Notes: generated from the sequence alone by a model not told the origin. A stretch of 64,000 nucleotides of DNA from Patescibacteria group bacterium (GCA_038065715.1 JBBTQL010000004.1:35693-99692), one strand, 5' to 3'; positions 1-24,878 are shown, counted from the stretch's first letter. Translations and numbers: made by a program.

Positions 1-1
1 A

Positions 2-364
2 CCTAAAAAATTTAAAACGCAGGTTATACTAAAAAGAGATGAGTTTTTAAACCAAATTAAAACAGCATCTCTATTTTCTGGAAAAATCAACGAAGTAAAA
101 ATTACCATAAATGTTGAAAAAAAAGAAATAGAAATATTTGCTCAAAGCCCGGATCTTGGCGAAAATAAATCTATTATTATAGGAAAAATAGACGGAGAAT
201 CAATAGAAGCTTCTTTTAATCACAGGTTTTTAACAGATGGTCTATTAAATATAAAAAGCTCAGAAGTAATGTTTAATTTAAGCAAAGAAGAGGGGGCGTG
301 CATTTTAAGGCCGGTCGGCGACGCGAGTTATATTTATGTGGTAATGCCAATTAAATCAACATAG
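2..364 (+). CDS. dnaN: DNA polymerase III beta sliding clamp, C-terminal fragment (5' part outside window)
   Basis: Frame open from window edge to TAG 362-364. Translation ...IEASFNHRFLTDGLLNIKSSEVMFNLSKEEGACILRPVGDASYIYVVMPIKST resembles the conserved beta-clamp domain III ending. Confidence 0.7.
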   Translation, partial: PKKFKTQVILKRDEFLNQIKTASLFSGKINEVKITINVEKKEIEIFAQSPDLGENKSIIIGKIDGESIEASFNHRFLTDGLLNIKSSEVMFNLSKEEGACILRPVGDASYIYVVMPIKST

Positions 365-367
365 GTT

Positions 368-2497
368 TTATCTTCCGGCAGCCAGCCAATTATTAATTCC
401 TTGTTGCCAATAATTATATTGCGCGTCTGTGTTTGGATTTTGTGGAGGAGGGCCCAAAGGATCATCTTTATTTATATAATATAAAATAGTGTTAGTGTCA
501 TTAGAATTTAACTGGCCCAATAAAACAGGGCTTTTATTTATTATATTGTCTGGCGGATTAAAATTTTCAACAGCATGATTTTTAATTATTTTTTCTATAA
601 CTTTTCTCCATATTGGAGCCGCTAATCCAACGCCAACATCTTTTGTTGGAGAATTATCGCTGTTTCCAACCCACACCCCCACAACCGTGAAGGGAGAATA
701 TCCCATTGTCCAGCCGTCTTTTAAATTTGATGTCGTTCCTGTTTTAGCCGCAACCTGATAGTCTGGAAAATAAAGAGCGGAATTTGCGCCGAAAACAGGC
801 GCCCTTAAATTATTGTCTGATAAAATATTATTTATTTGCCTTGCGGTCTGCGTGTCTAAAACCTTAGTAGATTGTTTGTTTTTTTGTTCAATAATATTGC
901 CGCCGCTGTCTTCTATTTTTAATATACTAGACGGAGAGGTCAGTAAACCTTCTGTCGCAAAAACACCATAAGCAGAGGTTAATTCTAATAAATTTACTTC
1001 TCCTCCGCCCAACACCAAGGATAAGCCATAACGATCCGGATTATTTAAAGTTGTCATTCCAAAATCTTGCGCTGTTTTTAAAGCGTCTTTAAGCCCCGAC
1101 AAATATAATAATTTTACCGATGGAAGGTTTAAAGATTGCGCTAAAGATTGCCTTATAGTAACCTTTCCTCTATAAGCGCCGTCATAATTTTGAGGATGAT
1201 AACATTCTAACCCATACATGTCTTTTTGCTGGCCTCCGTTAGGGCTGCAATTAGGGTTAAATTCAGTTTTTGCGTCCCATAACACTGTATCTGGGGTAAA
1301 ACCTTTTTTAAGCGCTGTAGCATAAACAAATGGCTTAAACGATGATCCTGGCTGTCTTTGCCCCATAGTTGCCACATCATATTTTGGATCAAATAAACAA
1401 CTTCCTGCGGGCTTTTCATCACATCCTGAAGGATAGGGTTTTTCAAAATAATTTTTTGATCCAATTAGCGCTAAAATTTCGCCGGTTTTTGGGTCAAGAA
1501 CCACCACGGCTGCATTATTCGCCCCGCGGCTTTTATTTGTTTTTTCTGCGTCTTTTAAAATTTTCTCTGCATATTGCTGAATATCCCAGTCTATCGTTGT
1601 ATAAACCCTTAATCCTTTTTCCTTTAAAAAATCTTCGCCGTATTTTTTATTTAAATATTTTTGTACATACATTACAAAATGCGGAGCTTTTATATTTGTT
1701 CTGTCTTCTGAAAAAACTATTTTTTCTGCCTTTGATTTTTCCATTTGGTCTTTTGTTATATACCCCGCTTTCTGTACTTTTTCTAAAACATAATCTTTTC
1801 TTTTTAAAAGTTCGTTTTTATTAGAACCGTATGGAGAAAGATAACTTGGAGCCGGAAGCAGCGCCGTTAAAGTTGCGGCCTCTGCCACAGAAATATCAGA
1901 CGCCGGCTTATTAAAATATGTTTGGCTGGCAGACTCAACCCCATAAGTATTTTGTCCGAAAGGAACTGCGTTTAAATACCAATTAAAAATTTGGTCTTTT
2001 GAATATTTTCTTTCTAATTCTATGCTTAAAACAATTTCCCTGACTTTTCTTGATATGCTTTTTTGGCCAGTTAAATAAACAGACCTTATTAGTTGCTGGG
2101 TTATTGTAGATCCGCCCTGGCTGGCAGATTGCAGTTTTAAGTCAATTAGTATGGCTCTGAATATTCCTTCAAAATCTATTCCGCCATGCTGGTAAAACCT
2201 TGCATCCTCTGAAGCTAAAACGGCATGTTTTAAATTATCTGAGATTTTATCAAACGCAACAATTTCCCTTTTTTCTTCGCCATAAATATCATATAAAAGA
2301 ACCTTTCCTGTCCTGTCATAAATTTTAGTGGATTGTATAAATGGAGTTTCAGTGAATTTTTCGGGCTGGGGCAGATTATAAGTGTAATAAAAAAACAGCA
2401 ATAAAATAAAACCTAAGAAAGCCAAAAACAAATAAGACAGGTATTCCCCTATCTTAATTACTATTTTTAATCTTTTATCTTTAATATTTTTAAACAT
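368..2497 (-). CDS. Class A penicillin-binding protein (glycosyltransferase GT51 + transpeptidase)
   Basis: 709 aa with an N-terminal TM helix. GT51 motifs EDARFYQHGGID and GSTITQQL; transpeptidase motifs SSFKP (SxxK) and KTGTT (KTG). Confidence 0.9.
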   Translation of the reverse strand: MFKNIKDKRLKIVIKIGEYLSYLFLAFLGFILLLFFYYTYNLPQPEKFTETPFIQSTKIYDRTGKVLLYDIYGEEKREIVAFDKISDNLKHAVLASEDARFYQHGGIDFEGIFRAILIDLKLQSASQGGSTITQQLIRSVYLTGQKSISRKVREIVLSIELERKYSKDQIFNWYLNAVPFGQNTYGVESASQTYFNKPASDISVAEAATLTALLPAPSYLSPYGSNKNELLKRKDYVLEKVQKAGYITKDQMEKSKAEKIVFSEDRTNIKAPHFVMYVQKYLNKKYGEDFLKEKGLRVYTTIDWDIQQYAEKILKDAEKTNKSRGANNAAVVVLDPKTGEILALIGSKNYFEKPYPSGCDEKPAGSCLFDPKYDVATMGQRQPGSSFKPFVYATALKKGFTPDTVLWDAKTEFNPNCSPNGGQQKDMYGLECYHPQNYDGAYRGKVTIRQSLAQSLNLPSVKLLYLSGLKDALKTAQDFGMTTLNNPDRYGLSLVLGGGEVNLLELTSAYGVFATEGLLTSPSSILKIEDSGGNIIEQKNKQSTKVLDTQTARQINNILSDNNLRAPVFGANSALYFPDYQVAAKTGTTSNLKDGWTMGYSPFTVVGVWVGNSDNSPTKDVGVGLAAPIWRKVIEKIIKNHAVENFNPPDNIINKSPVLLGQLNSNDTNTILYYINKDDPLGPPPQNPNTDAQYNYWQQGINNWLAAGR

Positions 2498-2556
2498 ATA
2501 TTTTTGAATATAATTTAAGAATATAATACCACAAAACCCCTATTTTTACAAAAAAC

Positions 2557-2587
2557 AAAAACTCCGCTTAAATTCCACGGAGTTTTT
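2557..2587 (-). terminator. Intrinsic terminator-like hairpin between two minus-strand genes
   Basis: AAAAACTCCG / CGGAGTTTTT 10-bp stem with A/T runs on both sides. Confidence 0.6.
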
Positions 2588-2602
2588 GTTTTGTTGTTGT
2601 TA

Positions 2603-2788
2603 TTATTCTTCTTCCTCTACCATTGTATCATCATCGTCGTCAACCACTTCTTCGGCTTTTTCATCGTCGCCGTCATCATCCCAATTATCTTCATCAAAGT
2701 CATCTTCTTGATTTATAAGCCTATTTAAAAATTCTTCTTCCATTTTTTTTATTTTTTTAATTCTATTGTCCTTATTATATTTTTTCAT
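2603..2788 (-). CDS. Small highly acidic hypothetical protein
   Basis: 61-aa ORF with a D/E-rich C-terminal half, located upstream of the PBP gene. No recognisable family. Confidence 0.4.
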   Translation of the reverse strand: MKKYNKDNRIKKIKKMEEEFLNRLINQEDDFDEDNWDDDGDDEKAEEVVDDDDDTMVEEEE

Positions 2789-2833
2789 AAACTATTGTCA
2801 ACCCCGTTAAAAGCCTACTCTGTGGAAAACTTT

Positions 2834-3331
2834 TTAAGTCCAATAATTTTTTAACGAAGCGCAAATAGCCAGCCCCAAAGCATCAAAAGCATCGTCCTTT
2901 TTTCTATTGTTTTTTTTAAAATCAAACCCGTTTAAATCCAATGTTTTTTTTAGCATCTCTTGCATTTGTTTTTTTTCTGCCCTGCCATACCCAGTGATAG
3001 CCATTTTCACTTGCAAAGGAGTAAATTCTACAACTGGCAATTTTTTTTCTTCAGCCGCAAGCAGTATTACTCCCTTTGTTTGGCTTACGGGAATTGCTGT
3101 TTTTAAATTTTTAAAGAAAAATAAATTTTCAACAGCCATTATTTCAGGTTTATGCTTTGCAATCAGTTTTTCTGTTTCTTTGTATATTTTTTTTAATCTT
3201 TCTCCAGTGGTTGCAAACTGCTCTGTTATTATGCATCCAAAATCAATAACCTCAACGCGGCAGTCTTTATGCTTTTTGATAATAGAATAGCCAACCACCA
3301 CAGACCCCGGATCTATGCCTAAGATTATCAT
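2834..3331 (-). CDS. ruvC: Holliday junction resolvase RuvC
   Basis: 165 aa. N-terminal ILGIDPGSVVVGYSII RNase H-fold motif; C-terminal DAFDALGLAIC. Confidence 0.9.
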   Translation of the reverse strand: MIILGIDPGSVVVGYSIIKKHKDCRVEVIDFGCIITEQFATTGERLKKIYKETEKLIAKHKPEIMAVENLFFFKNLKTAIPVSQTKGVILLAAEEKKLPVVEFTPLQVKMAITGYGRAEKKQMQEMLKKTLDLNGFDFKKNNRKKDDAFDALGLAICASLKNYWT

Positions 3332-4057
3332 TTAGTTTTTTAGGTTAGAGTAAATATCGTTTACTGCATCGTTTTCGTCTAAGGCTTCAAAGAGTTTTTG
3401 CGCTTGTTGTTTTTCTTTTTCTGAAATTTCAACTTCTTCTTTAGCAACATAATCCAAAGACGCAGATTCAATTTTAATCCCCTTTTCTTCTAAGGATTTT
3501 TTTACGCTATCTAAATCTTCTATTTTTGTATAAATTTCAAGTTCGTCTCCGCGCCACTTTACATCATCTGCGCCAGCTTCTATGGCTAAAAGCTCCAGTT
3601 CTTCTTTTGTTTTATTGTTTCCGCTAACAGATATAGCTCCTTTTCTCTCAAACATCCATCTCACAGCTCCTTCGCCTGCCATTTTTCCGTTATTTTGGTT
3701 TAAAATAGATTTTATTTCTCCCAAAGTCCTGTTTGTATTGTCTGTAATGCCGTTAATTATTAAAGCGATTCCTCCTGGCCCAAATCCCTCAAAAGACACC
3801 TCTTCTAAAGTTTCTCCTGCCAATTCTCCGGTACCTTTTTTAATTGCCCGTTCAATATTTTCTTTGGGCATATTCATATTTTTAGCCTGTTCTATCACAG
3901 CCTTAAGTTTGGCGTTTTTAAATGGGTCTCCCGATCCCCCTCCTTCTTTGACGGCTATTGTAATTAACCGGCCATATTTAGAATATATTTTTCCTTTTTT
4001 GGCATCATTGGCCATCTTTGTGGCCATAATTGTTTTTGCATGACTATGTCCCGACAT
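3332..4057 (-). CDS. yebC: YebC/PmpR family DNA-binding regulator
   Basis: 241 aa. N-terminus MSGHSHAKTIMATKMANDAKKGKIYSK is typical of the YebC family; abuts ruvC. Confidence 0.9.
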   Translation of the reverse strand: MSGHSHAKTIMATKMANDAKKGKIYSKYGRLITIAVKEGGGSGDPFKNAKLKAVIEQAKNMNMPKENIERAIKKGTGELAGETLEEVSFEGFGPGGIALIINGITDNTNRTLGEIKSILNQNNGKMAGEGAVRWMFERKGAISVSGNNKTKEELELLAIEAGADDVKWRGDELEIYTKIEDLDSVKKSLEEKGIKIESASLDYVAKEEVEISEKEKQQAQKLFEALDENDAVNDIYSNLKN

Positions 4058-5057
4058 ATTTTTTAAAAAGTTTTAATTTAATTAATAATACAATTGCGGC
4101 TGAAATTATAGTTATAATTAAGGCTGTTAAAAATAAAAACCAAGGATTTGCCCCGCTAAAACTTTCGTTGGCAGTTTGGCTTATTGCGTCATTAATGCTT
4201 GCTGTTTTTAAATTTTCATCAACTTTATTACTATTACCAGATTTTTTAGAATTAGACAATATCTCTAAAACAATAATATTTGCAGTTCCCGGGGTAAGGG
4301 TCTTACTCCATTGCCAGCCTGCCTGCGCGGGCAGGCCATTATTCGTTTTATTGTAAGATTGGCCGAGAGGCGCCTTTGTGAGAGAAACTAAATCAATGGT
4401 TTTGCCATCGGGAGTTAACAAATTTAAGCCGTCCCCATCATTGTTCAGTATTATTTTAGTGTCTTGTCTTTTAAAAACTAAATATCCATTGGCAGATATT
4501 TTTACCTGCCTGCCTTCAGGCAGGTATTTAGAAATTGTAAAAGCCGTAATTGTGCCTGCTGTATCTTTTATTTGCCAGTTTGATAAATCAACTTCAAAGT
4601 TATTTGCGTTATATAATTCAATCCATTCGTTTGTTTCGTCTGCGCCTTCTGGTGAAGGCAAAATCTCATTTATAAAAATTCCGCTCGGATAAATTATCGC
4701 GCGTGTTGCCTCTGTCGTGTTTTGTGTATTTAAATTTTGAGAATTAGGATTTGTTTCGGATTTAGAATTTTGAATTTCGGATTTTTCGCCTACATAGGCG
4801 AGCCCCTGGTCTTTTATTTTTTGTAAAGTTTTTTCTCCTATTCCTTTAACTTTTATCAAATCGTCAACAGATAAAAATGGTCTTGCCTCTATTATTCTTT
4901 GCGCCAATACCGGCCCTATGCCAATTATCTCATCTAATTGCGCCAATGAGGCGGTATTTATTTCCACCTTATCTGCCCGCGCAGACAGGTCTGCCGCCAA
5001 AATAAGAGGCGGGCAAAAAGAAAAAACTAATAAAAAAATAATAAATATATTTTTCAC
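4044..5057 (-). CDS. Secreted/anchored ComEA-like helix-hairpin-helix plus lamin-tail-domain protein
   Basis: Signal-like N-terminus. HhH repeats (LAQLDEIIGIGPVLAQRII, VKGIGEKTLQKIK), LTD-like INEILPSPEGADETNEWIELYNANNFEVDLSNWQIKD, and a C-terminal TM helix. Confidence 0.7.
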   Translation of the reverse strand: MKNIFIIFLLVFSFCPPLILAADLSARADKVEINTASLAQLDEIIGIGPVLAQRIIEARPFLSVDDLIKVKGIGEKTLQKIKDQGLAYVGEKSEIQNSKSETNPNSQNLNTQNTTEATRAIIYPSGIFINEILPSPEGADETNEWIELYNANNFEVDLSNWQIKDTAGTITAFTISKYLPEGRQVKISANGYLVFKRQDTKIILNNDGDGLNLLTPDGKTIDLVSLTKAPLGQSYNKTNNGLPAQAGWQWSKTLTPGTANIIVLEILSNSKKSGNSNKVDENLKTASINDAISQTANESFSGANPWFLFLTALIITIISAAIVLLIKLKLFKKYVGT

Positions 5058-5070
5058 AATTCAGGCATGC

Positions 5071-6084
5071 TTAAATTAATGGACTTTGATTGTTCTTTGG
5101 TTTAAGCCCAAAATGTTCATAGGCAAGTTTTGAGGCGACTCTGCCCTTTGGAGTTCTTTCAATAAAACCGCATTGCATCAAATAGGGTTCGTAAATATCT
5201 AAAATAGAATCTTCTTCTTCCATGGCAGCAGCCGACAAAGATTGAAGCCCCACTGGACCGCCGTTAAATTTTTCTATCAAAGCTTTTAATATAGATCTGT
5301 CGCTGGAATCTAACCCCATTTTATCCACTTCTAAAGAATTTAGCGCATCATTTGCAATTTCTTTTGTGATAAATCCATCACTTTTAACTTCTGCAAAATC
5401 TCTAACTCTTTTAAAAAGTCGGTTGGCAACCCTTGGAGTAAAACGAGACCTCTTTGCTATAATTTTTACGGCTTCTGGCTCAATCCCCACATTTAAAATT
5501 TTTCCTGACCTTTCAATTATTTTTTCAATATCTTCATTTGAGTAAAAATTTAATTGAAAAGTCGCGCCAAAGCGATTTCTTAAGGGCGAGGACAAAAGCC
5601 CGGGCCTTGTTGTGGCTCCAATCATTGTAAAATGAGGCAACTTTAATTCCATTGTTCTTGCCATAGGTCCTTTGCCTAAAATTAAATTAAGCTTGTACTC
5701 TTCCATGGCAGGATATAAATATTCTTCAACCGTTTTATTTATTCTATGTATTTCATCTAAAAACAAAACATCGCCTTCTGATAAATTAGTTAGAATTGCC
5801 GCCAAATCTCCGGCTCTTTCTACGGCAGGGCCCGAAGTCACCCTAATGGACTTGCCCATTTCATTGGCAACTAAATATGCCAGCGTGGTTTTTCCTAATC
5901 CAGAGTTCCCATAAAATAATAAATGGTCAGGCGACTGGCTTCTTTTTTTTGCCGCTGTTATTATTATCCTGATATTTTCTTTGATTTTTTCCTGGCCCAC
6001 ATACTCTTGCCAGTTTTTTGGTCGCAAAGCAGAATCCAGCGCGTTATCGTCATTGTTTATTTTTTCTGGTAAAACTCTTGACAT
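5071..6084 (-). CDS. ruvB: Holliday junction branch migration helicase RuvB
   Basis: 337 aa. Walker A GNSGLGKTTLA and Walker B LFLDEIHR; full-length RuvB-like organisation. Confidence 0.95.
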   Translation of the reverse strand: MSRVLPEKINNDDNALDSALRPKNWQEYVGQEKIKENIRIIITAAKKRSQSPDHLLFYGNSGLGKTTLAYLVANEMGKSIRVTSGPAVERAGDLAAILTNLSEGDVLFLDEIHRINKTVEEYLYPAMEEYKLNLILGKGPMARTMELKLPHFTMIGATTRPGLLSSPLRNRFGATFQLNFYSNEDIEKIIERSGKILNVGIEPEAVKIIAKRSRFTPRVANRLFKRVRDFAEVKSDGFITKEIANDALNSLEVDKMGLDSSDRSILKALIEKFNGGPVGLQSLSAAAMEEEDSILDIYEPYLMQCGFIERTPKGRVASKLAYEHFGLKPKNNQSPLI

Positions 6085-6169
6085 AAGCTTTATAAGGTGA
6101 TATAATTAAATTTATTGACGCCTACAATTTATTATAACAAATTTGTTCGTATTATTTATAGGTTTTGCT

Positions 6170-6306
6170 AAAACAGCTCTGGAGTTGGAGGTTTTATATG
6201 GGTTTGTCTCAGTTTCCGGGTAATCTTGCTCCGGCTCGATTATTCCTCAGACAAACTTTTACTTATGTCCCAGACATAAAGACACCTCCAACTCCAGAGC
6301 TGTTTT
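6170..6306 (+). other. 137-nt element closed by a perfect 23-bp inverted repeat (structured RNA or MITE-like element)
   Basis: AAAACAGCTCTGGAGTTGGAGGT (6170-6192) is the exact reverse complement of 6284-6306. Two internal hairpins (GTTTGTCT..AGACAAAC and TATGTC-CCA-GACATA). Confidence 0.55.
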
Positions 6307-6343
6307 CCCCCGTTTCTAGTTCTTTGTTTTTAGGAGAAACGCC

Positions 6344-6520
6344 ATGAGAAAAATATGTATTATCGGGCATTCCATTTCCTGGGTGGCAGTTGTTCTATAT
6401 ATACTTGCTTGCACTTTTGCACCAGAGTTGGCCGGAAAGCACAACTGGGCAGCAATACTGTCTTTCGCCGCTCTTGGGATGTTCTCTTTTCTCCACTTCT
6501 CAGTTGTTGATGCTAAATAA
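6344..6520 (+). CDS. Small hydrophobic two-TM protein (58 aa), below ORF-track cutoff
   Basis: AGGAGA at 6333-6338 lies 5 nt before ATG 6344. Sequence MRKICIIGHSISWVAVVLYILACTFAPELAGKHNWAAILSFAALGMFSFLHFSVVDAK, followed by a terminator hairpin. Confidence 0.55.
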   Translation: MRKICIIGHSISWVAVVLYILACTFAPELAGKHNWAAILSFAALGMFSFLHFSVVDAK

Positions 6521-6538
6521 ACATTCAACAACCTCACA

Positions 6539-6578
6539 AAAGTCCTAGTAGGCTTCGCCCAACGGACTTTATTTTTTT
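6539..6578 (+). terminator. Intrinsic terminator (convergent gene pair)
   Basis: AAAGTCC...GGACTTT stem with an inner GGC-TTC-GCC hairpin, followed by ATTTTTTT. Confidence 0.6.
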
Positions 6579-6581
6579 AAA

Positions 6582-7913
6582 CTAACCAGCTGGCTGCTCT
6601 TCGTCTTCCTCGACAACCCTCAAAACTTCTTCTAATGTTGTATCTCCTAAAACAACATCAATTAAACCCGACTGGTACATTGTGACCATCCCCTTTTTGA
6701 TGGCTAATTCCCTAATTGATGAAACTGGAGGATTAGTTAAAATAAATTTTTCCATTTGCGAGTCTACTAAAAATACTTCAAATAATCCCTGCCTTCCTTT
6801 ATATCCTGTAAAGTTGCAAGCCTCGCACCCTTTTTCTTTTGTTTTTGCAATTTGTATTTTATTTAAATCAGGAAGGATAATATCGTTGGGCAGATTTTTT
6901 AACCCTTTTTTTATTTCAGATAATTCGCTTGCAGTCGGCTTTGCAAGGGTTGAGCATTTTTTGCATACTTTTCTTACCAATCTTTGGGCTACTGTCATTT
7001 TTAATCCTGATGCGATTGATGACGGTTCTGTGCCTAGGTCCACAAGCCTTGGAATGGTGCCAGCAGCGTCATTAGTATGTAAAGTTGATAATACCAAGTG
7101 GCCAGTTAAAGCCGCTTGCAGGGCTATTTTAGCGGTTTCAAGGTCTCTAATTTCACCAACCAATATAACATCGGGGTCTTGCCTTACTATTGACCTTAGC
7201 CCGTCTGAAAAGTCATATCCTTTTTCTGGAGCCACTTGTGTTTGAGAAACGCCTTTTAAGTGATATTCAATCGGGTCCTCAATTGTGATAATTTTAATTT
7301 CTGGATTTTGAATCTTCATTAAAAAAGCGTAAAGAGTAGTTGTTTTTCCAGAACCCGTAGGACCTGTAACAATTATCATTCCATTGGGCTTTTCAATTTC
7401 TTTTTGAAAAATTTTATATAAATCTTTTCTTAATCCTAAAGAATCTAACCCAATTAAATTTTTTGGATTTAAAATTCTCATTACAATTGATTCGCCATAT
7501 TCAGCCGGCAGGCTGGAAGTTCTTATTTCTATTAATGAGTCCTCAATTTCTATGGTAAACCTTCCGTCTTGCGGCTTATCTGTGATATTTAATTTAAGCC
7601 TAGAGAGAAGCTTTAATCTGGAAATTAAGCTGTGATATATTTTTTCGTCAAAAAAAACAACGTCCTGTAAGACGCCGTCTAACCTTATTCTTAACCTTGA
7701 GTTATTTTCCTGCGGCTCTATATGTATATCAGAAGTATCAAGCGCTATGGCTCCAAACAAAATAACATCTAAAAGATTTGTGGTATTTTGCGTTATGTAT
7801 TCTTCTATCTTTGCTTTAAAATTGGAAATACTTTTAACATCTTTTTTTACTTCAACTATAACATCTTTTGAAATAGCTACGGTTCCTAATAATTTTTTCT
7901 TTGTTTCATTCAT
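6582..7913 (-). CDS. Type II/IV secretion / type IV pilus assembly ATPase (GspE/PilB family)
   Basis: 443 aa. Walker A GPTGSGKTTT, Asp box LVGEIRD, His box TGHLVLSTLHTN, and a tetracysteine motif CKKC...CEAC. Confidence 0.9.
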   Translation of the reverse strand: MNETKKKLLGTVAISKDVIVEVKKDVKSISNFKAKIEEYITQNTTNLLDVILFGAIALDTSDIHIEPQENNSRLRIRLDGVLQDVVFFDEKIYHSLISRLKLLSRLKLNITDKPQDGRFTIEIEDSLIEIRTSSLPAEYGESIVMRILNPKNLIGLDSLGLRKDLYKIFQKEIEKPNGMIIVTGPTGSGKTTTLYAFLMKIQNPEIKIITIEDPIEYHLKGVSQTQVAPEKGYDFSDGLRSIVRQDPDVILVGEIRDLETAKIALQAALTGHLVLSTLHTNDAAGTIPRLVDLGTEPSSIASGLKMTVAQRLVRKVCKKCSTLAKPTASELSEIKKGLKNLPNDIILPDLNKIQIAKTKEKGCEACNFTGYKGRQGLFEVFLVDSQMEKFILTNPPVSSIRELAIKKGMVTMYQSGLIDVVLGDTTLEEVLRVVEEDEEQPAG

Positions 7914-8748
7914 TTTTATTAAAAATATTATTTTTTATTTCTTTTAAGTCGGCTCCCGTTTTCATTAAAAGCCCGGCAGTTTCAAAAATTTCCTGCGTTG
8001 TTTTTGAATTTCCAAAATTTTCTGTGTAAATTGCCAGTCCTGCCAAAAAGCAGTTGGCAGCCTGTTTTTTTACCCCGTTAGAAAGCCCATCTTTTGAGGG
8101 TTCCTTATTGGATGGGTCGTATGGCCCCGGTTGCTCAAGCTTTCTATCGGGGTTTACAAGATTTAACGCCATCTCTGACAAAGAATAATCTCTTATTATG
8201 TTTATTCTACCAAAGTTTTGGTTTTTTGTCCCGACTTCGTCGAGGATGCTCGATGGCGAAGCCATCGGCACACTTTCACTATCTATATTTAAAATAAGAG
8301 AATCCAGTAAAAACCCATAAGAGTTAAGCTTGCCAGCCAATTCAGTTTTAAAATCTTTTATTCCTAAAGTTATTGTAAGGTCTGGTTTTGTTTCTGAAAA
8401 ATAAAATAAGAGGTTTTCTTTTTTTATATTTCCCCTGTCAATCATTAAATGAATTTTTAATCCTTCTTCATTTTTTTCGTAGTAAACCTGCGAGATTTCA
8501 GCTGTTTTTTGAGGAATTGAAATCACAAAGTTTTTTGGATATGAAATATGGCCTAAGCTAGGCAATAAAAATCGAAATTTTTCTGGAAATTCTTCTATTA
8601 TTAAGTTTACATTTTTATTTAATTCTTTTAAAGTATAAAAAAGAGCCAAAGCAACTGGAATGCTTTCGCCATTTGGGTTATCATTTGGAATAATGCAGAT
8701 ATTTTTTGCTTCAGAAATTAATTGCTTTGCTTCTTGCGGTATTTCCAT
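7906..8748 (-). CDS. Hypothetical protein with a degenerate DHH/NrnA-like N-terminal region
   Basis: 280 aa. ICIIPNDNPNGESIPVALALFYTLKELNKNV resembles the DHH motif region, but the catalytic His/Asp are replaced. Carries GC-rich insert A1. Confidence 0.45.
   Translation of the reverse strand: MEIPQEAKQLISEAKNICIIPNDNPNGESIPVALALFYTLKELNKNVNLIIEEFPEKFRFLLPSLGHISYPKNFVISIPQKTAEISQVYYEKNEEGLKIHLMIDRGNIKKENLLFYFSETKPDLTITLGIKDFKTELAGKLNSYGFLLDSLILNIDSESVPMASPSSILDEVGTKNQNFGRINIIRDYSLSEMALNLVNPDRKLEQPGPYDPSNKEPSKDGLSNGVKKQAANCFLAGLAIYTENFGNSKTTQEIFETAGLLMKTGADLKEIKNNIFNKNE
8228..8271. repeat. GC-rich palindromic insert family A, copy A1 (in frame in CDS 7906-8748)
   Basis: GTCCCGACTTCGTCGAGGATGCTCGATGGCGAAGCCATCGGCAC encodes ..PMASPSSILDEVG.. 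on the minus strand. Related to copies at 21287, 41150 and 61452. Confidence 0.75.
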
Positions 8749-8805
8749 AAAATTTAAGATTTAATATACCCTATTCGATTTTAAAAAATAAGTCAATTGT
8801 GGATT

Positions 8806-9312
8806 ATGAGAAATAAAATTATAACAAAAAGTTTTAAAGAAACTCAAAAAATTGGCGAGAAATTGGCAGATGAAATTTTGAAATTACTGCCGCAAAAAAG
8901 CGCAATAATTTTAGGTTTGAACGGAAACCTTGGGGGAGGCAAAACAACCTTCTTGCAAGGTTTTGCAAAAGGGCTGGGAATTAAAGAAAAAATATTAAGC
9001 CCCACCTTTGTAATTTACAAAAAGTTTATTATTTCACCAATACTTATAAATAAGCGTACGCAGAATTTGGAGTATCGCCAATTTTATCACTTTGATTGCT
9101 ATCGCATAAAAAATTACAAAGACTTTTTGGCGATAGGATTTTCCGCCCAAGGCGGACCAGCCTCGGGCTGGAAAGAAATAATTTCAAACCCAAAAAATAT
9201 TGTGGCAATTGAATGGCCAGAAAAAATTAAAAAGATTTTTCCAAAAACTGCCGTAAAGATAAATTTTAAATTTATCAACGAAAGCGCAAGAGAGTTGACA
9301 ATTAATAAATAA
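8806..9312 (+). CDS. tsaE: tRNA t6A biosynthesis ATPase TsaE
   Basis: P-loop GNLGGGKTTFLQGFAKGLGI, SPTF and YHFDCYRI motifs. ATG 8806 preferred over the TTG at 8797 in the track. Confidence 0.85.
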   Translation: MRNKIITKSFKETQKIGEKLADEILKLLPQKSAIILGLNGNLGGGKTTFLQGFAKGLGIKEKILSPTFVIYKKFIISPILINKRTQNLEYRQFYHFDCYRIKNYKDFLAIGFSAQGGPASGWKEIISNPKNIVAIEWPEKIKKIFPKTAVKINFKFINESARELTINK

Positions 9313-9323
9313 TATGATAAACT
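9295..9323 (+). promoter_or_regulatory. Sigma-70-like promoter with TG-extended -10
   Basis: TTGACA, 17-nt spacer ending AATATGA, then TAAACT. The same architecture occurs at the DGR target, csrA and other promoters in this window. Confidence 0.55.
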
Positions 9324-9329
9324 CTAAAT

Positions 9330-9578
9330 TAGTTCCTGAAAAAACGTTTAGTTAGCGGCAAGGCGCCTTTTTTACCAACGGGGAAAGATGGAGCAATACC
9401 CATCTGAAAGCGCGTTGGATTGCTGAGATAATCTTTGTCACCCTGACACAAAGAAACGATTTTTGGCAAAGAGGCGCGCTGGAAAAGAAATGCCAGCCGA
9501 ATCTATTGGAGTCGATTCGGCGCCGCTAACCTTAAAGCCCCTTGTTTTGCAACTCGCAGAACAAGGGGCTGATTTTTT
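9330..9578 (+). ncRNA. Unclassified structured RNA with its own promoter and terminator
   Basis: Closing stem GTTAGCGGC (9351-9359) / GCCGCTAAC (9522-9530). At least 5 internal hairpins, then terminator AGCCCCTTGTT..AACAAGGGGCT plus T-run (9536-9578). No convincing ORF on this strand. Confidence 0.5.
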
Positions 9579-9632
9579 GAATAATTTGACATTATTATTA
9601 GTATAATAGTATTATAAATAATAATTAAATAT

Positions 9633-9845
9633 ATGTCTAAAAAAGTAATTTTATTAAAATCAACAGTAAGAAGGGAAAAAGGCGTGGTGGTTTTACCTTT
9701 GGAAAAATGGCAGAAACTGGAAAAAGAAAAATATGAACTTAAAGAGGTGGTAAAAGCGGTTTTAGAGGGAGAATTAGCGCTGAGGTCAGGGAAAACCAGG
9801 TCTTTTAGAGATTTTATAAAAGACAAATATGCCAAAGATTTTTAA
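9633..9845 (+). CDS. Type II antitoxin (partner of the RelE-like toxin)
   Basis: 70 aa, overlaps the downstream toxin gene by 17 nt, and has the typical small antitoxin size. Confidence 0.6.
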   Translation: MSKKVILLKSTVRREKGVVVLPLEKWQKLEKEKYELKEVVKAVLEGELALRSGKTRSFRDFIKDKYAKDF

Positions 9846-10101
9846 ATCGCATTCTACCCCTCATTTTGAAAGCAAATTTGATAAACTTCCGGAAGATATT
9901 AAAAAAATCGCGCTTAGAAAAATTTTACTTTTTGAAAGTAATTTTCTTCATCCCAGCTTAAATACGCACAAATTAAAAGGGCCCCTTTCTAACTTTTGGG
10001 CTTTTTATATTACTAAAAACTATAGAGTTCTTTTTCAGTTTTTAAAGAATAAAGAAGTCATCTATTATGATATTGATACCCACGATATTTATAAAAAATA
10101 A
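9829..10101 (+). CDS. RelE/YafQ-type mRNA interferase toxin
   Basis: 90 aa. Pattern ..HKLKGPLSNFWAFYITKNYRVLFQF....IYYDIDTHDIYKK is typical of RelE/ParE superfamily toxins. Confidence 0.75.
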   Translation: MPKIFKSHSTPHFESKFDKLPEDIKKIALRKILLFESNFLHPSLNTHKLKGPLSNFWAFYITKNYRVLFQFLKNKEVIYYDIDTHDIYKK

Positions 10102-24218: not shown

Positions 24219-24878
24219 ATGGCTGTGCAAGTCATTGGCGATCTATATGTGGAGTTGGATGGGAAGTTGGCGGAGATTAAGCGGCAAATGAGGCAGCAGG
24301 GAGGCTATCCGTTTGACCCGGAGAAATTAAACAAGTTTCTCCAACTAGCTGTCGAGGGCAGGTTCAACGACAACCGGTGCTGGTGCGAGAAGGAAGGAGT
24401 GATCTACTTTGAGGTCACCTCTGACGGCACGACTGGACCCCAATGGATTGAGCGTCTGGAGAAGAAGGGTATCCAGCTCTCCAAGTGGGCCAAGGACGTC
24501 CTGCTGTCTCCGGACTTCAAGCCGACCAACGGCGTGACCACCGAGATCGCTGTCCTCAAGGGCGCGCTTTTTATGGACAATGATCGCATCACGTCTAAGA
24601 TCCGCGCTGAGGCCGACAAGCGCAAGCTCGTCAAGCCCGAAGCCGAACTCGGTTGCCTTATCCGCGACACGTTCACGGACGAGGAAATCGAAGCCATGGG
24701 TCTTGTGTGGATCGTGGCGTTCCACGAGCCCATCAAGGACTCTGACGGCGATCCGACGTTGCTCGGTGCGCGTCGCCTTGGCGATGGCCGTTGGCTGCGC
24801 GCGTGCTGCGGCCTGCCCGACCGCAGGTGGCTTCGCGACCGTGGCTTTGCCTTCGCCGTCTCGCAAGTATCTTCGTAA
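24219..24878 (+). CDS. DGR-1 variable (target) protein with C-terminal VR, no signal peptide
   Basis: 219 aa; RBS AAAGGAG before the ATG. Sampled 60-nt lines are about 60-65% GC versus about 30% for the genome. The C-terminal 42 codons are the VR. Confidence 0.85.
   Translation: MAVQVIGDLYVELDGKLAEIKRQMRQQGGYPFDPEKLNKFLQLAVEGRFNDNRCWCEKEGVIYFEVTSDGTTGPQWIERLEKKGIQLSKWAKDVLLSPDFKPTNGVTTEIAVLKGALFMDNDRITSKIRAEADKRKLVKPEAELGCLIRDTFTDEEIEAMGLVWIVAFHEPIKDSDGDPTLLGARRLGDGRWLRACCGLPDRRWLRDRGFAFAVSQVSS
24741..24866 (+). repeat. Variable repeat VR-1
   Basis: Gap-free 126-nt alignment with TR-1. There are 21 substitutions opposite TR adenines and one C/G difference; the last 25 nt are identical. Confidence 0.9.

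What the first reader, a model, noticed from the sequence alone, without database searches (positions are those of the whole stretch)
6170..6520. 137-nt element with a perfect 23-bp closing stem upstream of a small hydrophobic ORF
Seen in sequence:
- 6170-6192 and 6284-6306 are exact reverse complements (23 bp).
- They enclose two hairpins, giving a three-way-junction-like shape.
- 25 nt downstream are AGGAGA and a 58-codon ORF (6344-6520) encoding a two-TM peptide, followed by a terminator (6539-6578).
- The ORF-track entries here (6165-6347 plus strand and 6316-6537 minus strand) look spurious.

Inference, with three alternatives:
- a long structured 5' UTR controlling a small membrane peptide, the arrangement typical of type I toxin loci;
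- a MITE with 23-bp terminal inverted repeats, although I see no target-site duplication;
- an independent ncRNA.
Basis: partly seen in the sequence, partly recalled or inferred. Interest (0 to 1): 0.5.

Follow-up and report, generated by a model that had tools for sequence, protein, structure and literature searches.

The report
Conserved structured small RNA gene
The 137-base hairpin-rich element is a previously undescribed, single-copy structured small RNA gene kept at one genomic spot in a whole clade of tiny groundwater (CPR) bacteria. The small membrane-peptide ORF behind it is a recent add-on found only in this genome.

Summary
6170-6192 and 6284-6306 are perfect reverse complements that close a three-way junction.

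It is not a MITE, and it did not originate as a peptide leader.
- The same 132-139-nt element occurs once per genome, always between the ruvB start and the pilB end.
- It was present in about 70 loci of Candidatus Staskawiczbacteria-type bacteria, including 10 of 10 loci found through RuvB alone.
- In 54 distinct sequences, 28 of 48 base pairs show compensatory changes.
- No Rfam family matches.

The plus strand is the likely RNA strand.
- A near-consensus promoter (TTGACA-17-TGnTATAAT) lies upstream in 40 of 46 loci; the minus strand has none.
- The closing helix is followed by a U-run in relatives, which makes it an intrinsic terminator.

The 58-aa ORF has no homologue. It lies in a roughly 260-nt insertion that cut the U-run to four U, so read-through from the sRNA promoter probably expresses it. 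The same point is an insertion hotspot in relatives. There it holds NYN or PemK toxin cassettes, and seven loci carry a repeat of the element's 3' end.

The molecular function of the RNA is unknown.

The parts
6078..6106 (+). Sigma-70 promoter of the sRNA: -35 TTGACA at 6078-6083 (it overlaps the ruvB start codon at 6082-6084), a 17-nt spacer with a TG extension, and -10 TATAAT at 6101-6106
   Evidence: 12/12 match with TG. The same promoter is present on the plus strand in 40 of 46 related loci, with none of comparable score on the minus strand.
6107..6169 (+). Variable 5' leader between promoter and closing stem. It is long here; in relatives the -10 box ends 14-77 nt before the stem.
   Evidence: Only its first ~30 nt are conserved in relatives.
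6170..6306 (+). The conserved 137-nt structured RNA, a three-way junction
   Evidence: Covariance model score 157.9 bits; single copy in the window. Homology to relatives stops exactly at these ends. 54 distinct homologues were aligned.
6170..6192 (+). P1 5' arm of the closing helix. Columns 1-22 pair in all sequences; a 23rd pair forms in the window.
   Evidence: 12 of 22 pairs show compensatory change. The core GUUGG/CCAAC is invariant.
6202..6256 (+). P2 arm: lower helix 6202-6209/6249-6256; upper helix 6218-6225/6238-6246 with a bulged U; a 2x2 internal loop; a 2-bp helix; and UCCG tetraloop at 6230-6233
   Evidence: 12 of 18 pairs are compensatory. The tetraloop variants UCCG, UUCG, UCUG and UUUG fit a UNCG-like loop on the plus strand.
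6262..6281 (+). P3 hairpin: 6262-6269/6273-6281, with invariant loop CCA at 6270-6272
   Evidence: 4 of 8 pairs are compensatory, and two of them change in 26 of 54 sequences.
6284..6306 (+). P1 3' arm ending in UUUU. In relatives this arm plus a U5-8 run forms the intrinsic terminator and is the part that is repeated beyond inserted cassettes.
6307..6566 (+). Lineage-specific insertion into the U-run (end approximate). It carries the SD, the 58-aa ORF and a hairpin.
   Evidence: Absent from the closest relatives L009, L013, L035 and L060. No blastn or tblastn match in any locus fetched by then.
6344..6520 (+). Orphan 58-aa ORF with two hydrophobic segments, preceded by AGGAGA at 6332-6337
   Evidence: No homologue and no Pfam family. 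SD motifs are rare in this genome: 6 of 48 genes.
6539..6578 (+). Terminator of the inserted unit: a hairpin followed by a U-run that is probably the displaced original U-run of the sRNA
5071..6084 (-). ruvB, the conserved left neighbour, transcribed away from the element
   Evidence: Pfam RuvB_N, AAA_lid_4 and RuvB_C. Synteny holds in the loci whose flanking DNA was recovered.
6582..7913 (-). pilB/gspE-type ATPase (T2SSE), the conserved right neighbour, convergent with the element
   Evidence: Pfam T2SSE; synteny

Best explanation
The element is a stand-alone, vertically inherited gene for a structured small RNA of about 140-200 nt on the plus strand.

**Shown**
- It is single-copy.
- It is present in every related genome examined, at the same place and in the same orientation.
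- It folds into a three-way junction. All four helices are supported by compensatory changes, and the junction strands and loops are nearly invariant.

**Inferred from sequence signals**
- Transcription starts at a near-consensus sigma-70 promoter whose -35 box overlaps the ruvB start codon.
- In most relatives transcription ends at the closing helix P1 plus a U-run. P1 therefore both pairs the two ends of the RNA and acts as the intrinsic terminator.

**Inferred, ~50%**
- The RNA works in trans as a folded particle bound by a protein partner. The reason is that the conserved nucleotides lie in the junction, the loops and the inner P1.
- A 6S-like RNA polymerase decoy is the only named model whose architecture resembles it: closing stem, open 5' bubble strand, hairpin in the 3' bubble strand, apical stem. 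I give that about 10%.

**Shown in relatives**
- The point just 3' of P1 is an insertion hotspot. Relatives carry single-gene NYN or PemK/MazF-like cassettes there.
- In seven loci the far end of the insert carries a copy of part of the element's 3' portion (18-48 nt).

**In this window**
- A ~260-nt block with an SD-led 58-aa hydrophobic ORF sits at that hotspot. It cut the U-run to four U and has no promoter of its own.
- The ORF is therefore probably expressed by read-through, which would make the old sRNA a secondary 5' leader here (inferred, ~35%).
For: - **Copy number and synteny.**
  - The exact 23-mer gave one locus in each of 11 species genomes.
  - 49 metagenome loci were found with an interior pattern that does not include the stem.
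  - All complete loci have the order ruvB / element / pilB in the same orientation.
  - The element is present in 10 of 10 loci chosen only through RuvB homologues.
  - The covariance model finds one copy in the window and one full copy per locus.
- **Structure.**
  - With 47 sequences, 97.2% of cells are paired and 23 of 48 pairs are compensatory. Slid controls give at most 4, and 0 of 500 shuffles reach this.
  - With 54 sequences, 28 of 48 pairs are compensatory, including 12 of 22 in P1.
- **Strand.**
  - The promoter TTGACA-17-TGnTATAAT lies on the plus strand in 40 of 46 loci and never on the minus strand.
  - The U-run after P1 averages 5.7 U, with 7.8 U in the first 10 nt, on the plus strand. 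The minus strand gives 4.4 and 5.8.
  - The tetraloop is UNCG-like on the plus strand.
  - The plus strand folds better in 36 of 47 sequences.
  - Cassette repeats copy the plus-strand 3' end.
- **Not a known family.** Rfam gives nothing at E <= 10.
- **The ORF is secondary.**
  - It is absent from relatives and has no homologue.
  - The window has the shortest U-run of 49 loci.
  - No promoter lies near the ORF.
- **Hotspot.**
Against: - There are no expression data, so transcription, RNA ends and abundance are inferred from sequence signals only.
- Pairing statistics do not decide the strand. RNAalifold gives -53.5 (plus) against -55.7 (minus). Each strand has G-U pairs that are A-C on the other.
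- The element would be transcribed head-on to the presumed direction of replication and opposite to all its neighbours.
- ruvB starts only 34-36 nt from the element in several loci, and no minus-strand promoter was found. Minus-strand read-through, and hence a minus-strand RNA copy, may therefore also exist.
- In many loci a small hairpin plus T-run lies between the strong promoter and the element. That promoter may not always drive the element.
- Against a 6S-like role:
  - there is no Rfam 6S hit;
  - 137 nt compares with about 200 nt for 6S;
  - the closing helix is perfect, whereas 6S arms are interrupted;
  - no alternative release hairpin appears when the template strand is blocked.
- No partner protein or target was identified.
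Confidence: 0.68

Rival explanations
1. Cis-antisense RNA and bidirectional terminator. The plus-strand RNA is perfectly complementary to the pilB 3' end or to the pilB-ruvB intercistronic RNA. Together with its strong promoter sitting on the ruvB start, it would control pilB or ruvB expression through RNA duplex formation, RNase III cleavage or transcriptional interference. P1 would terminate transcription in both directions.
For: - The position is fixed between pilB and ruvB in every locus.
- The -35 box overlaps the ruvB ATG.
- Both strands fold with similar energy and both end in a U-run.
- No separate ruvB promoter was found, and the spacing is as short as 34-36 nt.
Against: - The whole neighbourhood is syntenic, so a fixed position is expected anyway.
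- An antisense or terminator role does not explain the near-invariant junction and loop nucleotides or the 28 covarying pairs in three separate helices.
- No minus-strand promoter signal was found.
Confidence: 0.13
2. One reading: the element is the structured 5' UTR of a small toxic membrane peptide, that is, a type I toxin locus.
For: - In the window the ORF follows the element by 37 nt. It has an SD that a local hairpin can sequester, and its own terminator.
- The U-run after P1 is reduced to 4 U.
- L067 has a different SD-led 59-aa ORF with an N-terminal hydrophobic helix at the same place, after an element without a U-run.
- The hotspot otherwise collects toxin genes.
Against: - The ORF is missing from all other loci, about 70, including the closest relative (RuvB 95% identical). 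The element is present in all of them.
- The ORF has no homologue among 5.8 billion protein clusters.
- No antisense promoter was found.
- In relatives the element ends in a good terminator facing the end of pilB.
- The two ORFs are not alignable.
Confidence: 0.05
3. Minus-strand element: an intercistronic structured RNA in a pilB-ruvB transcript. It could be an RNase III processing stem or the pilB terminator.
For: - All neighbouring genes are on the minus strand.
- The minus-strand fold has z = -6.9 and ends in UUUU.
- Several stem variants are G-U on the minus strand but A-C on the plus strand.
- No separate ruvB promoter was found.
Against: - No promoter requirement would explain the conserved plus-strand consensus promoter.
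- The U-run is weaker on the minus strand.
- The loop CRRA is not a known stable tetraloop, whereas UNCG is.
- Terminators and processing stems do not usually keep invariant junctions.
- The cassette repeats would then copy the 5' end of the RNA, which is unusual.
Confidence: 0.07
4. DNA-level element: a recombination or attachment site folded in single-stranded DNA (integron attC-like or dif-like), or a cruciform, rather than an RNA.
For: - Inserts accumulate exactly at its 3' end, with repeats of that end.
- The length of 137 nt and the long stem with a branched tip recall long attC sites (from my own knowledge of integron attC structure).
- The strand is not resolved by pairing.
Against: - There is one full copy per genome, not an array.
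- The repeats contain only the 3' part, not a full site.
- I saw no unpaired central spacer and no extrahelical bases in P1.
- R boxes (RYYYAAC/GTTRRRY) are not matched beyond AAC...GTT.
- No integrase lies in the inserts or next to them.
- A conserved strong promoter points into the element.
Confidence: 0.05
5. MITE with 23-bp terminal inverted repeats.
For: - The element has perfect terminal inverted repeats.
- Genuine palindromic MITE-like insertions do exist in the same intergenic region of relatives.
Against: - There is one copy per genome in 11 species genomes and in 64 kb of this one.
- The position is orthologous in every locus examined.
- Helices covary.
- No target-site duplication was seen.
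- There is no match in phages, plasmids or viral contigs.
Confidence: 0.01

Closest known systems
6S RNA, in particular the Firmicutes 6S-1 type (Rfam RF00013)
   Same: - The 5' and 3' ends pair in a closing stem.
- The 5' strand of the central region is open and conserved.
- A small hairpin lies in the 3' strand of the central region.
- An interrupted apical stem is capped by a loop.
- The gene is single-copy and has a strong sigma-70 promoter.

PMC8876501 describes this layout, and also that truncated 6S-1 RNAs with short arms still bind RNA polymerase.
   Different: - There is no covariance-model hit even at E <= 10.
- The length is 137 nt, against about 200 nt.
- The closing helix is a perfect 22-bp duplex, not an interrupted one.
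- No alternative hairpin forms when the presumed template strand is blocked.
- RNA polymerase binding and product-RNA synthesis are untested.
tRNA and tmRNA genes as integration sites of genomic islands
   Same: - It is a conserved stable-RNA-type gene.
- Foreign DNA is inserted at its 3' end.
- A direct repeat of that 3' end (18-48 nt) lies at the far side of the insert in seven loci.
   Different: - The inserts are 0.5-1.6 kb with one or two genes and no integrase.
- The repeat length varies between loci, so precise site-specific recombination is not shown.
- The window's own insert has no repeat.
Type I toxin mRNAs with long folded 5' UTRs (hok, tisB, zorO and similar)
   Same: In this genome and in L067, a stable structure with paired ends precedes a short hydrophobic ORF whose SD can be sequestered locally.
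   Different: - The structure is far older and more widespread than the ORFs.
- In most genomes it ends in a terminator with no ORF behind it.
- No antisense RNA gene was found.
Rfam-type orphan structured sRNA motifs found by comparative genomics
   Same: It is defined by covariation, has a promoter and an intrinsic terminator, is restricted to one lineage, and has no known function.
   Different: - It is not in Rfam 15.
- The 22-bp terminal helix is unusually long and conserved in sequence.
- It is coupled to an insertion hotspot.

Membership tests
MITE | Many dispersed copies in a genome | tested here: not met
   There is one locus per genome in 11 species genomes and one copy in the 64-kb window. 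Each related locus has one full copy.
MITE | Terminal inverted repeats flanked by a target-site duplication | tested here: not met
   Inverted repeats are present, but they covary as an RNA helix. I saw no flanking duplication in the aligned flanks.
Type I toxin-antitoxin locus | Small hydrophobic toxin ORF conserved together with its leader | tested here: not met
   The ORF is absent from the other loci, about 70 in all, and has no homologue. The only other ORF in this position (L067) is not alignable.
Type I toxin-antitoxin locus | Antisense sRNA gene that overlaps the toxin mRNA | tested here: not met
   There is no minus-strand promoter in 5900-6800 in the consensus scan. A relaxed scan of 6290-6640 found only one weak 8/12 match.
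Type I toxin-antitoxin locus | Toxicity of the peptide on expression | not testable with these tools
   This needs an expression experiment.
6S RNA | Match to the family covariance model (RF00013 and relatives) | tested here: not met
   There is no 6S hit at E <= 10 in the window region or in 10 related loci.
6S RNA | Rod of about 200 nt: interrupted closing stem, central bubble, interrupted apical stem | tested here: inconclusive
   The layout is comparable (description in PMC8876501). However, the element is 137 nt and its closing helix is perfect.
6S RNA | Rearrangement into a release hairpin or collapse helix after product-RNA synthesis | tested here: not met
   Folding with the 5' bubble strand and inner 5' arm blocked gives no new helix that involves the freed 3' arm, in the eight representative sequences printed.
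6S RNA | Binding to the sigma-70 holoenzyme and templating of product RNA | not testable with these tools
   This needs biochemistry.
Intrinsic (Rho-independent) terminator | Stable stem directly followed by a U-run | tested here: met
   In relatives P1 is followed by a run of 4-8 U (mean 5.7), with a mean of 7.8 U in the first 10 nt. In the window only 4 U remain, followed by CCCCC, so the terminator is weakened here.
Integron attC site | Arrays of full sites, R''/R' boxes, unpaired central spacer, extrahelical bases, integrase nearby | tested here: not met
   There is a single full copy. The repeats hold the 3' part only. P1 is a perfect duplex. No recombinase lies in the inserts.
Integration site in the 3' end of a stable RNA gene (as in tRNA and tmRNA) | Direct repeat of the gene's 3' end at the distal border of the insert | tested here: met
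   L003 48 nt, L053 35 nt, L018 28 nt, L044 25 nt, L049 25 nt, L029 20 nt; L063 18 nt. It is not present in the window.
Integration site in the 3' end of a stable RNA gene (as in tRNA and tmRNA) | Integrase encoded by the inserted element | tested here: not met
   The inserts encode only NYN, PemK-like or unknown small proteins.
Riboswitch or cis-regulatory leader | A downstream gene on the same strand in most members | tested here: not met
   In most loci the element is followed within 47-110 nt by the convergent end of pilB.

The most novel reading that the evidence does not exclude
This would be a new class of stable, protein-bound small RNA specific to a CPR (Patescibacteria) lineage. Its sequence-conserved terminal helix would serve three roles at once: end-protecting stem, transcription terminator, and conserved landing pad for integrase-less toxin cassettes (an NYN or MazF-like RNase plus a small convergent RNA) and small membrane-peptide genes. 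Some of those inserts would hijack the sRNA promoter by deleting the U-run.
Probability: 0.3. Interest if true: 0.7.

Novelty: new member of a known kind. Interest (0 to 1): 0.55.

Why it matters
- In the full-text searches I ran, I found no paper describing lineage-specific small RNAs of CPR bacteria. Those searches cover open-access papers only.
- This element is a well-supported candidate. It was present in every related genome examined, has 28 covarying base pairs and a consensus promoter, and matches no Rfam family.
- A covariance model built here could annotate it across Patescibacteria genomes.
- The element also marks a small, precisely located hotspot where toxin cassettes and small membrane-peptide genes come and go. 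That offers a tractable case of how accessory genes are captured in very small genomes.
- For annotation, the ORF calls at 6165-6347 (+) and 6316-6537 (-) should be dropped. The 58-aa ORF should be treated as an unconfirmed orphan.

Tried and rejected
- **Rfam.** Four scans (window region and ten loci at E <= 10; whole window and 14 loci at gathering score) returned only tmRNA elsewhere in the window and chance miRNA-hairpin hits.
- **tRNA.** ARAGORN found no tRNA in 43 loci. A T-arm-like string in L013 turned out to be the inverted-repeat end of a MITE-like insert.
- **Viral, phage or plasmid origin.**
  - One viral-contig hit to the 18-mer is a chance match inside a coding sequence with no second arm.
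  - blastn against phages and plasmids found nothing.
- **Coding potential of the element.** A four-codon AUG...UAG frame after GGAGG is common but not universal (absent in the window, L014, L047 and L058). The genome hardly uses SD sequences. Rejected.
- **Trans targets.** Complements of the invariant loop or of the P1 arm show no meaningful second site in 64 kb.
- **Loop-junction pseudoknot.** A CCA/UGG pairing is not supported by eye: G32 changes to A in about eight sequences with no compensating change.
- **Strand from pairing statistics.** Inconclusive.
- **Replication origin.** The GC-skew minimum and the gene-strand switch lie near 8.7 kb. DnaA boxes are at chance level and none lies in the element.
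- **6S-type rearrangement.** None was found.
- **SRP RNA, Y RNA, 5S rRNA, hammerhead.** Considered from memory of their conserved motifs. None fits, and Rfam gives no hit.
- **More distant relatives through RuvB.** The 120 best RuvB homologues are all 76-100% identical, so the edge of the family's distribution was not reached.
- **Literature.** Five full-text searches (CPR/Parcubacteria ncRNA, Patescibacteria stable RNAs, 6S RNA with CPR, Staskawiczbacteria, 6S architecture) turned up no description of this RNA.

Full report
**1.

- The arms 6170-6192 and 6284-6306 are exact reverse complements: 23 nt, 91 nt apart.
- The 23-mer occurs nowhere else in the window, and none is expected by chance.
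- The plus strand folds into a closing stem with two hairpins at -73.4 kcal/mol (z = -7.6). The minus strand folds almost as well, at -69.4 kcal/mol (z = -6.9).
- AGGAGA, the 58-codon ORF at 6344-6520 and a hairpin plus U-run at 6539-6578 are all present.
- A perfect sigma-70 promoter lies at 6078-6106: TTGACA, 17 nt with a TG extension, TATAAT. Its -35 box overlaps the ruvB start codon.

**2. Who has it**

- The genome is a low-GC CPR bacterium.
- A scan of species-representative genomes with the 23-mer found one locus in each of 11 assemblies. Most are named Candidatus Staskawiczbacteria.
- Similarity to the window (81-87% identity) begins and ends exactly at the ends of the stem. The ORF block is not found.
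- That set was selected through the stem, so I rescanned metagenomes with a pattern made only of interior motifs. This returned 49 further loci.
- Lastly, I chose ten RuvB homologues at 76-95% identity without regard to the element. All ten loci contain it.
- In every locus complete enough to judge, the element lies between the ruvB start and the 3' end of a T2SSE/PilB ATPase gene. It always points away from ruvB (Pfam).
- A covariance model finds one copy in the 64-kb window and one full copy per locus.
- Nothing similar exists in the phage, plasmid or viral collections.
- This rules out a MITE.

**3. The structure is real**

- On 47 distinct sequences aligned with MAFFT, 97.2% of cells form standard pairs.
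- 23 of 48 pairs have changes on both sides. Slid controls give at most 4, and no shuffle out of 500 reaches this.
- With 54 sequences aligned to the model, 28 of 48 pairs are compensatory.
- In the closing helix, 12 of 22 pairs are compensatory. Only its core GUUGG/CCAAC is invariant in all sequences.
- The junction strands are nearly invariant: UUUUAUAUGG, UUUUACU and AUGACG.
- So are the CCA loop of P3 and the apical UUGC-UCCG-GCUC of P2.
- No Rfam family matches, even at E <= 10.
- Literature searches found no description of it.

**4. Which strand**

Pairing does not decide. Both strands give similar consensus energies, and each has G-U pairs that would be A-C on the other. Four other lines favour the plus strand.

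- **Promoter.** TTGACA-17-TGnTATAAT is present within 110 nt upstream in 40 of 46 loci. Nothing comparable exists on the other strand. Several of the six exceptions have MITE-like insertions that push the promoter further away.
- **U-run.** P1 is followed on the plus strand by a longer and richer U-run: mean 5.7, with 7.8 U in the first ten bases. The minus strand gives 4.4 and 5.8.
- **Tetraloop.** The apical tetraloop varies as UCCG, UUCG, UCUG and UUUG. That is UNCG-like on the plus strand and meaningless on the minus strand.
- **Insert repeats.** Repeats left by inserted DNA copy the right-hand end. That is the 3' end only if the gene is on the plus strand.

Three caveats remain.

- The gene would be transcribed opposite to all its neighbours.
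- In many loci a small hairpin with a T-run lies between the strong promoter and the element.
- ruvB starts as little as 34-36 nt from the element with no recognisable promoter of its own. A minus-strand transcript across the element cannot be excluded.

**5. The ORF**

- The 58-aa product is not in the protein collection.
- It has no detectable homologue and no Pfam family.
- Its DNA has no counterpart in any related locus.
- Alignment with the closest relatives shows that about 260 nt (6307 to about 6566) were inserted into the U-run that follows P1.
- The window is left with UUUU followed by CCCCC, the poorest U-run of 49 loci.
- The insert has no promoter on either strand.
- Its AGGAGA is unusual, because only 6 of 48 genes in the window have any SD-like motif.
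- If the ORF is expressed, the likely route is therefore read-through from the sRNA promoter.
- One other locus, L067 (RuvB 85% identical), has a different ORF at the same place.
  - The ORF encodes 59 aa, with AAGGAGG upstream and an N-terminal hydrophobic helix.
  - It follows an element that has lost its U-run altogether.
  - The two inserts are not alignable, apart from a by-eye resemblance of their terminators.

**6. An insertion hotspot**

- In most loci, 47-110 nt separate the element from the end of pilB.
- In about twenty loci the gap is 0.2-1.6 kb. Many of those hold one or two minus-strand genes: NYN-domain proteins, PemK/MazF-like proteins without a neighbouring antitoxin gene, or unknowns.
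- Next to the element these inserts start with a conserved plus-strand promoter (TATTGACA-17-TGCTATAMT). It is followed by a short hairpin-rich RNA with its own terminator, convergent with the toxin gene.
- At the far end, seven loci carry a copy of part of the element's 3' portion:
  - L003: 48 nt, from the J2/3 junction through P3 and the 3' arm;
  - L053: 35 nt;
  - L018: 28 nt;
  - L044 and L049: 25 nt each;
  - L029: 20 nt;
  - L063: 18 nt.
- This resembles island integration into the 3' ends of tRNA and tmRNA genes. The differences are that no integrase is present and the repeat length varies. The mechanism is therefore open.

**7. What the RNA does**

- This cannot be settled by computation.
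- The conservation pattern argues for a folded RNA recognised by a specific partner, not a mere terminator or antisense transcript. That pattern is an invariant junction and loops, a sequence-conserved inner P1, and freely covarying outer P1, P2 and P3.
- The architecture resembles a miniature 6S-1 RNA as described in PMC8876501.
  - Shared: a closing stem, an open 5' bubble strand, a hairpin in the 3' bubble strand and an interrupted apical stem.
  - Against membership: there is no 6S model hit, the element is short, and its closing helix is perfect.
  - Against membership: no release hairpin forms when the presumed template strand is blocked.
  - I therefore give the 6S-like model about 10%.
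- The main rival, at about 13%, is a cis-antisense role with bidirectional termination on pilB and ruvB.

**8. Verdict**

- The finding is a genuine, previously undescribed structured small-RNA gene of a CPR lineage.
- The MITE reading is refuted.
- The type I toxin leader reading applies at most secondarily to this genome.

Noticed in passing
L003:300-1080 (- strand view); L018, L044, L049, L053, L029, L063 downstream of the element: Small cassettes are inserted right after the element. Each has a conserved plus-strand promoter TATTGACA-17-TGCTATAMT, a short hairpin-rich RNA with its own terminator, and one convergent gene (NYN domain or PemK/MazF-like, with no protein antitoxin gene). At the far end lies an 18-48-nt copy of the element's 3' end. 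They look like RNase-toxin modules with an RNA partner.
   Followed up: partly
L067:2069-2248 (- strand): A 59-aa ORF (MLICICIAVTLVVGFAIGYWWGSK...) with AAGGAGG upstream sits directly after an element that has no U-run. It parallels the window's 58-aa ORF but is not alignable to it. Their terminator hairpins look alike by eye.
   Followed up: partly
L013, L007, L004 and L046 between ruvB and the element; L011:555-770 inside hairpin P2: Long palindromic MITE-like insertions of 200-400 nt, each with its own terminal inverted repeats and unrelated to the element, interrupt the promoter-element spacer. In L011 one interrupts the element itself.
   Followed up: partly
window, upstream of 48 ORF starts: Only 6 of 48 genes have an SD-like motif. 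Start codons are preceded by A/U-rich runs, which suggests largely SD-independent translation initiation in this organism.
   Followed up: partly
window:8748-8797 and 1-10000: All large ORFs to the left of about 8.75 kb are on the minus strand, and nearly all to the right are on the plus strand. The cumulative GC skew has its minimum there, as at a replication origin. DnaA boxes are at chance level.
   Followed up: partly
window:38053-38403 (-): A tmRNA gene (112 bits) with tag peptide ANLFNRQPALALA.
   Followed up: no
window:9313-10101: About 790 nt without an ORF of 150 aa or more, close to the strand-switch point. The content was not examined.
   Followed up: no
window:24001-26000 and 62001-64000: G+C is locally high (0.46 and 0.43, against about 0.34). 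One gene there (24219-24878) is among the few with a clear SD. This may be foreign DNA.
   Followed up: no
Several relatives (e.g. L006, L017, L038, L046, L053), between the strong promoter and the element: A short hairpin of the form UGGGU-loop-ACCCA, followed in several loci by a T-run, lies just downstream of the consensus promoter. After it comes a conserved CGTAnTATAAT box 12-25 nt before the element. This could be an attenuator plus a second promoter.
   Followed up: no
window:2834-3331 (-): The 165-aa ORF downstream of yebC corresponds in related loci to a RuvC gene of the same length in the same position. The region is thus a pilB / sRNA / ruvB / comEA-like / yebC / ruvC block.
   Followed up: partly
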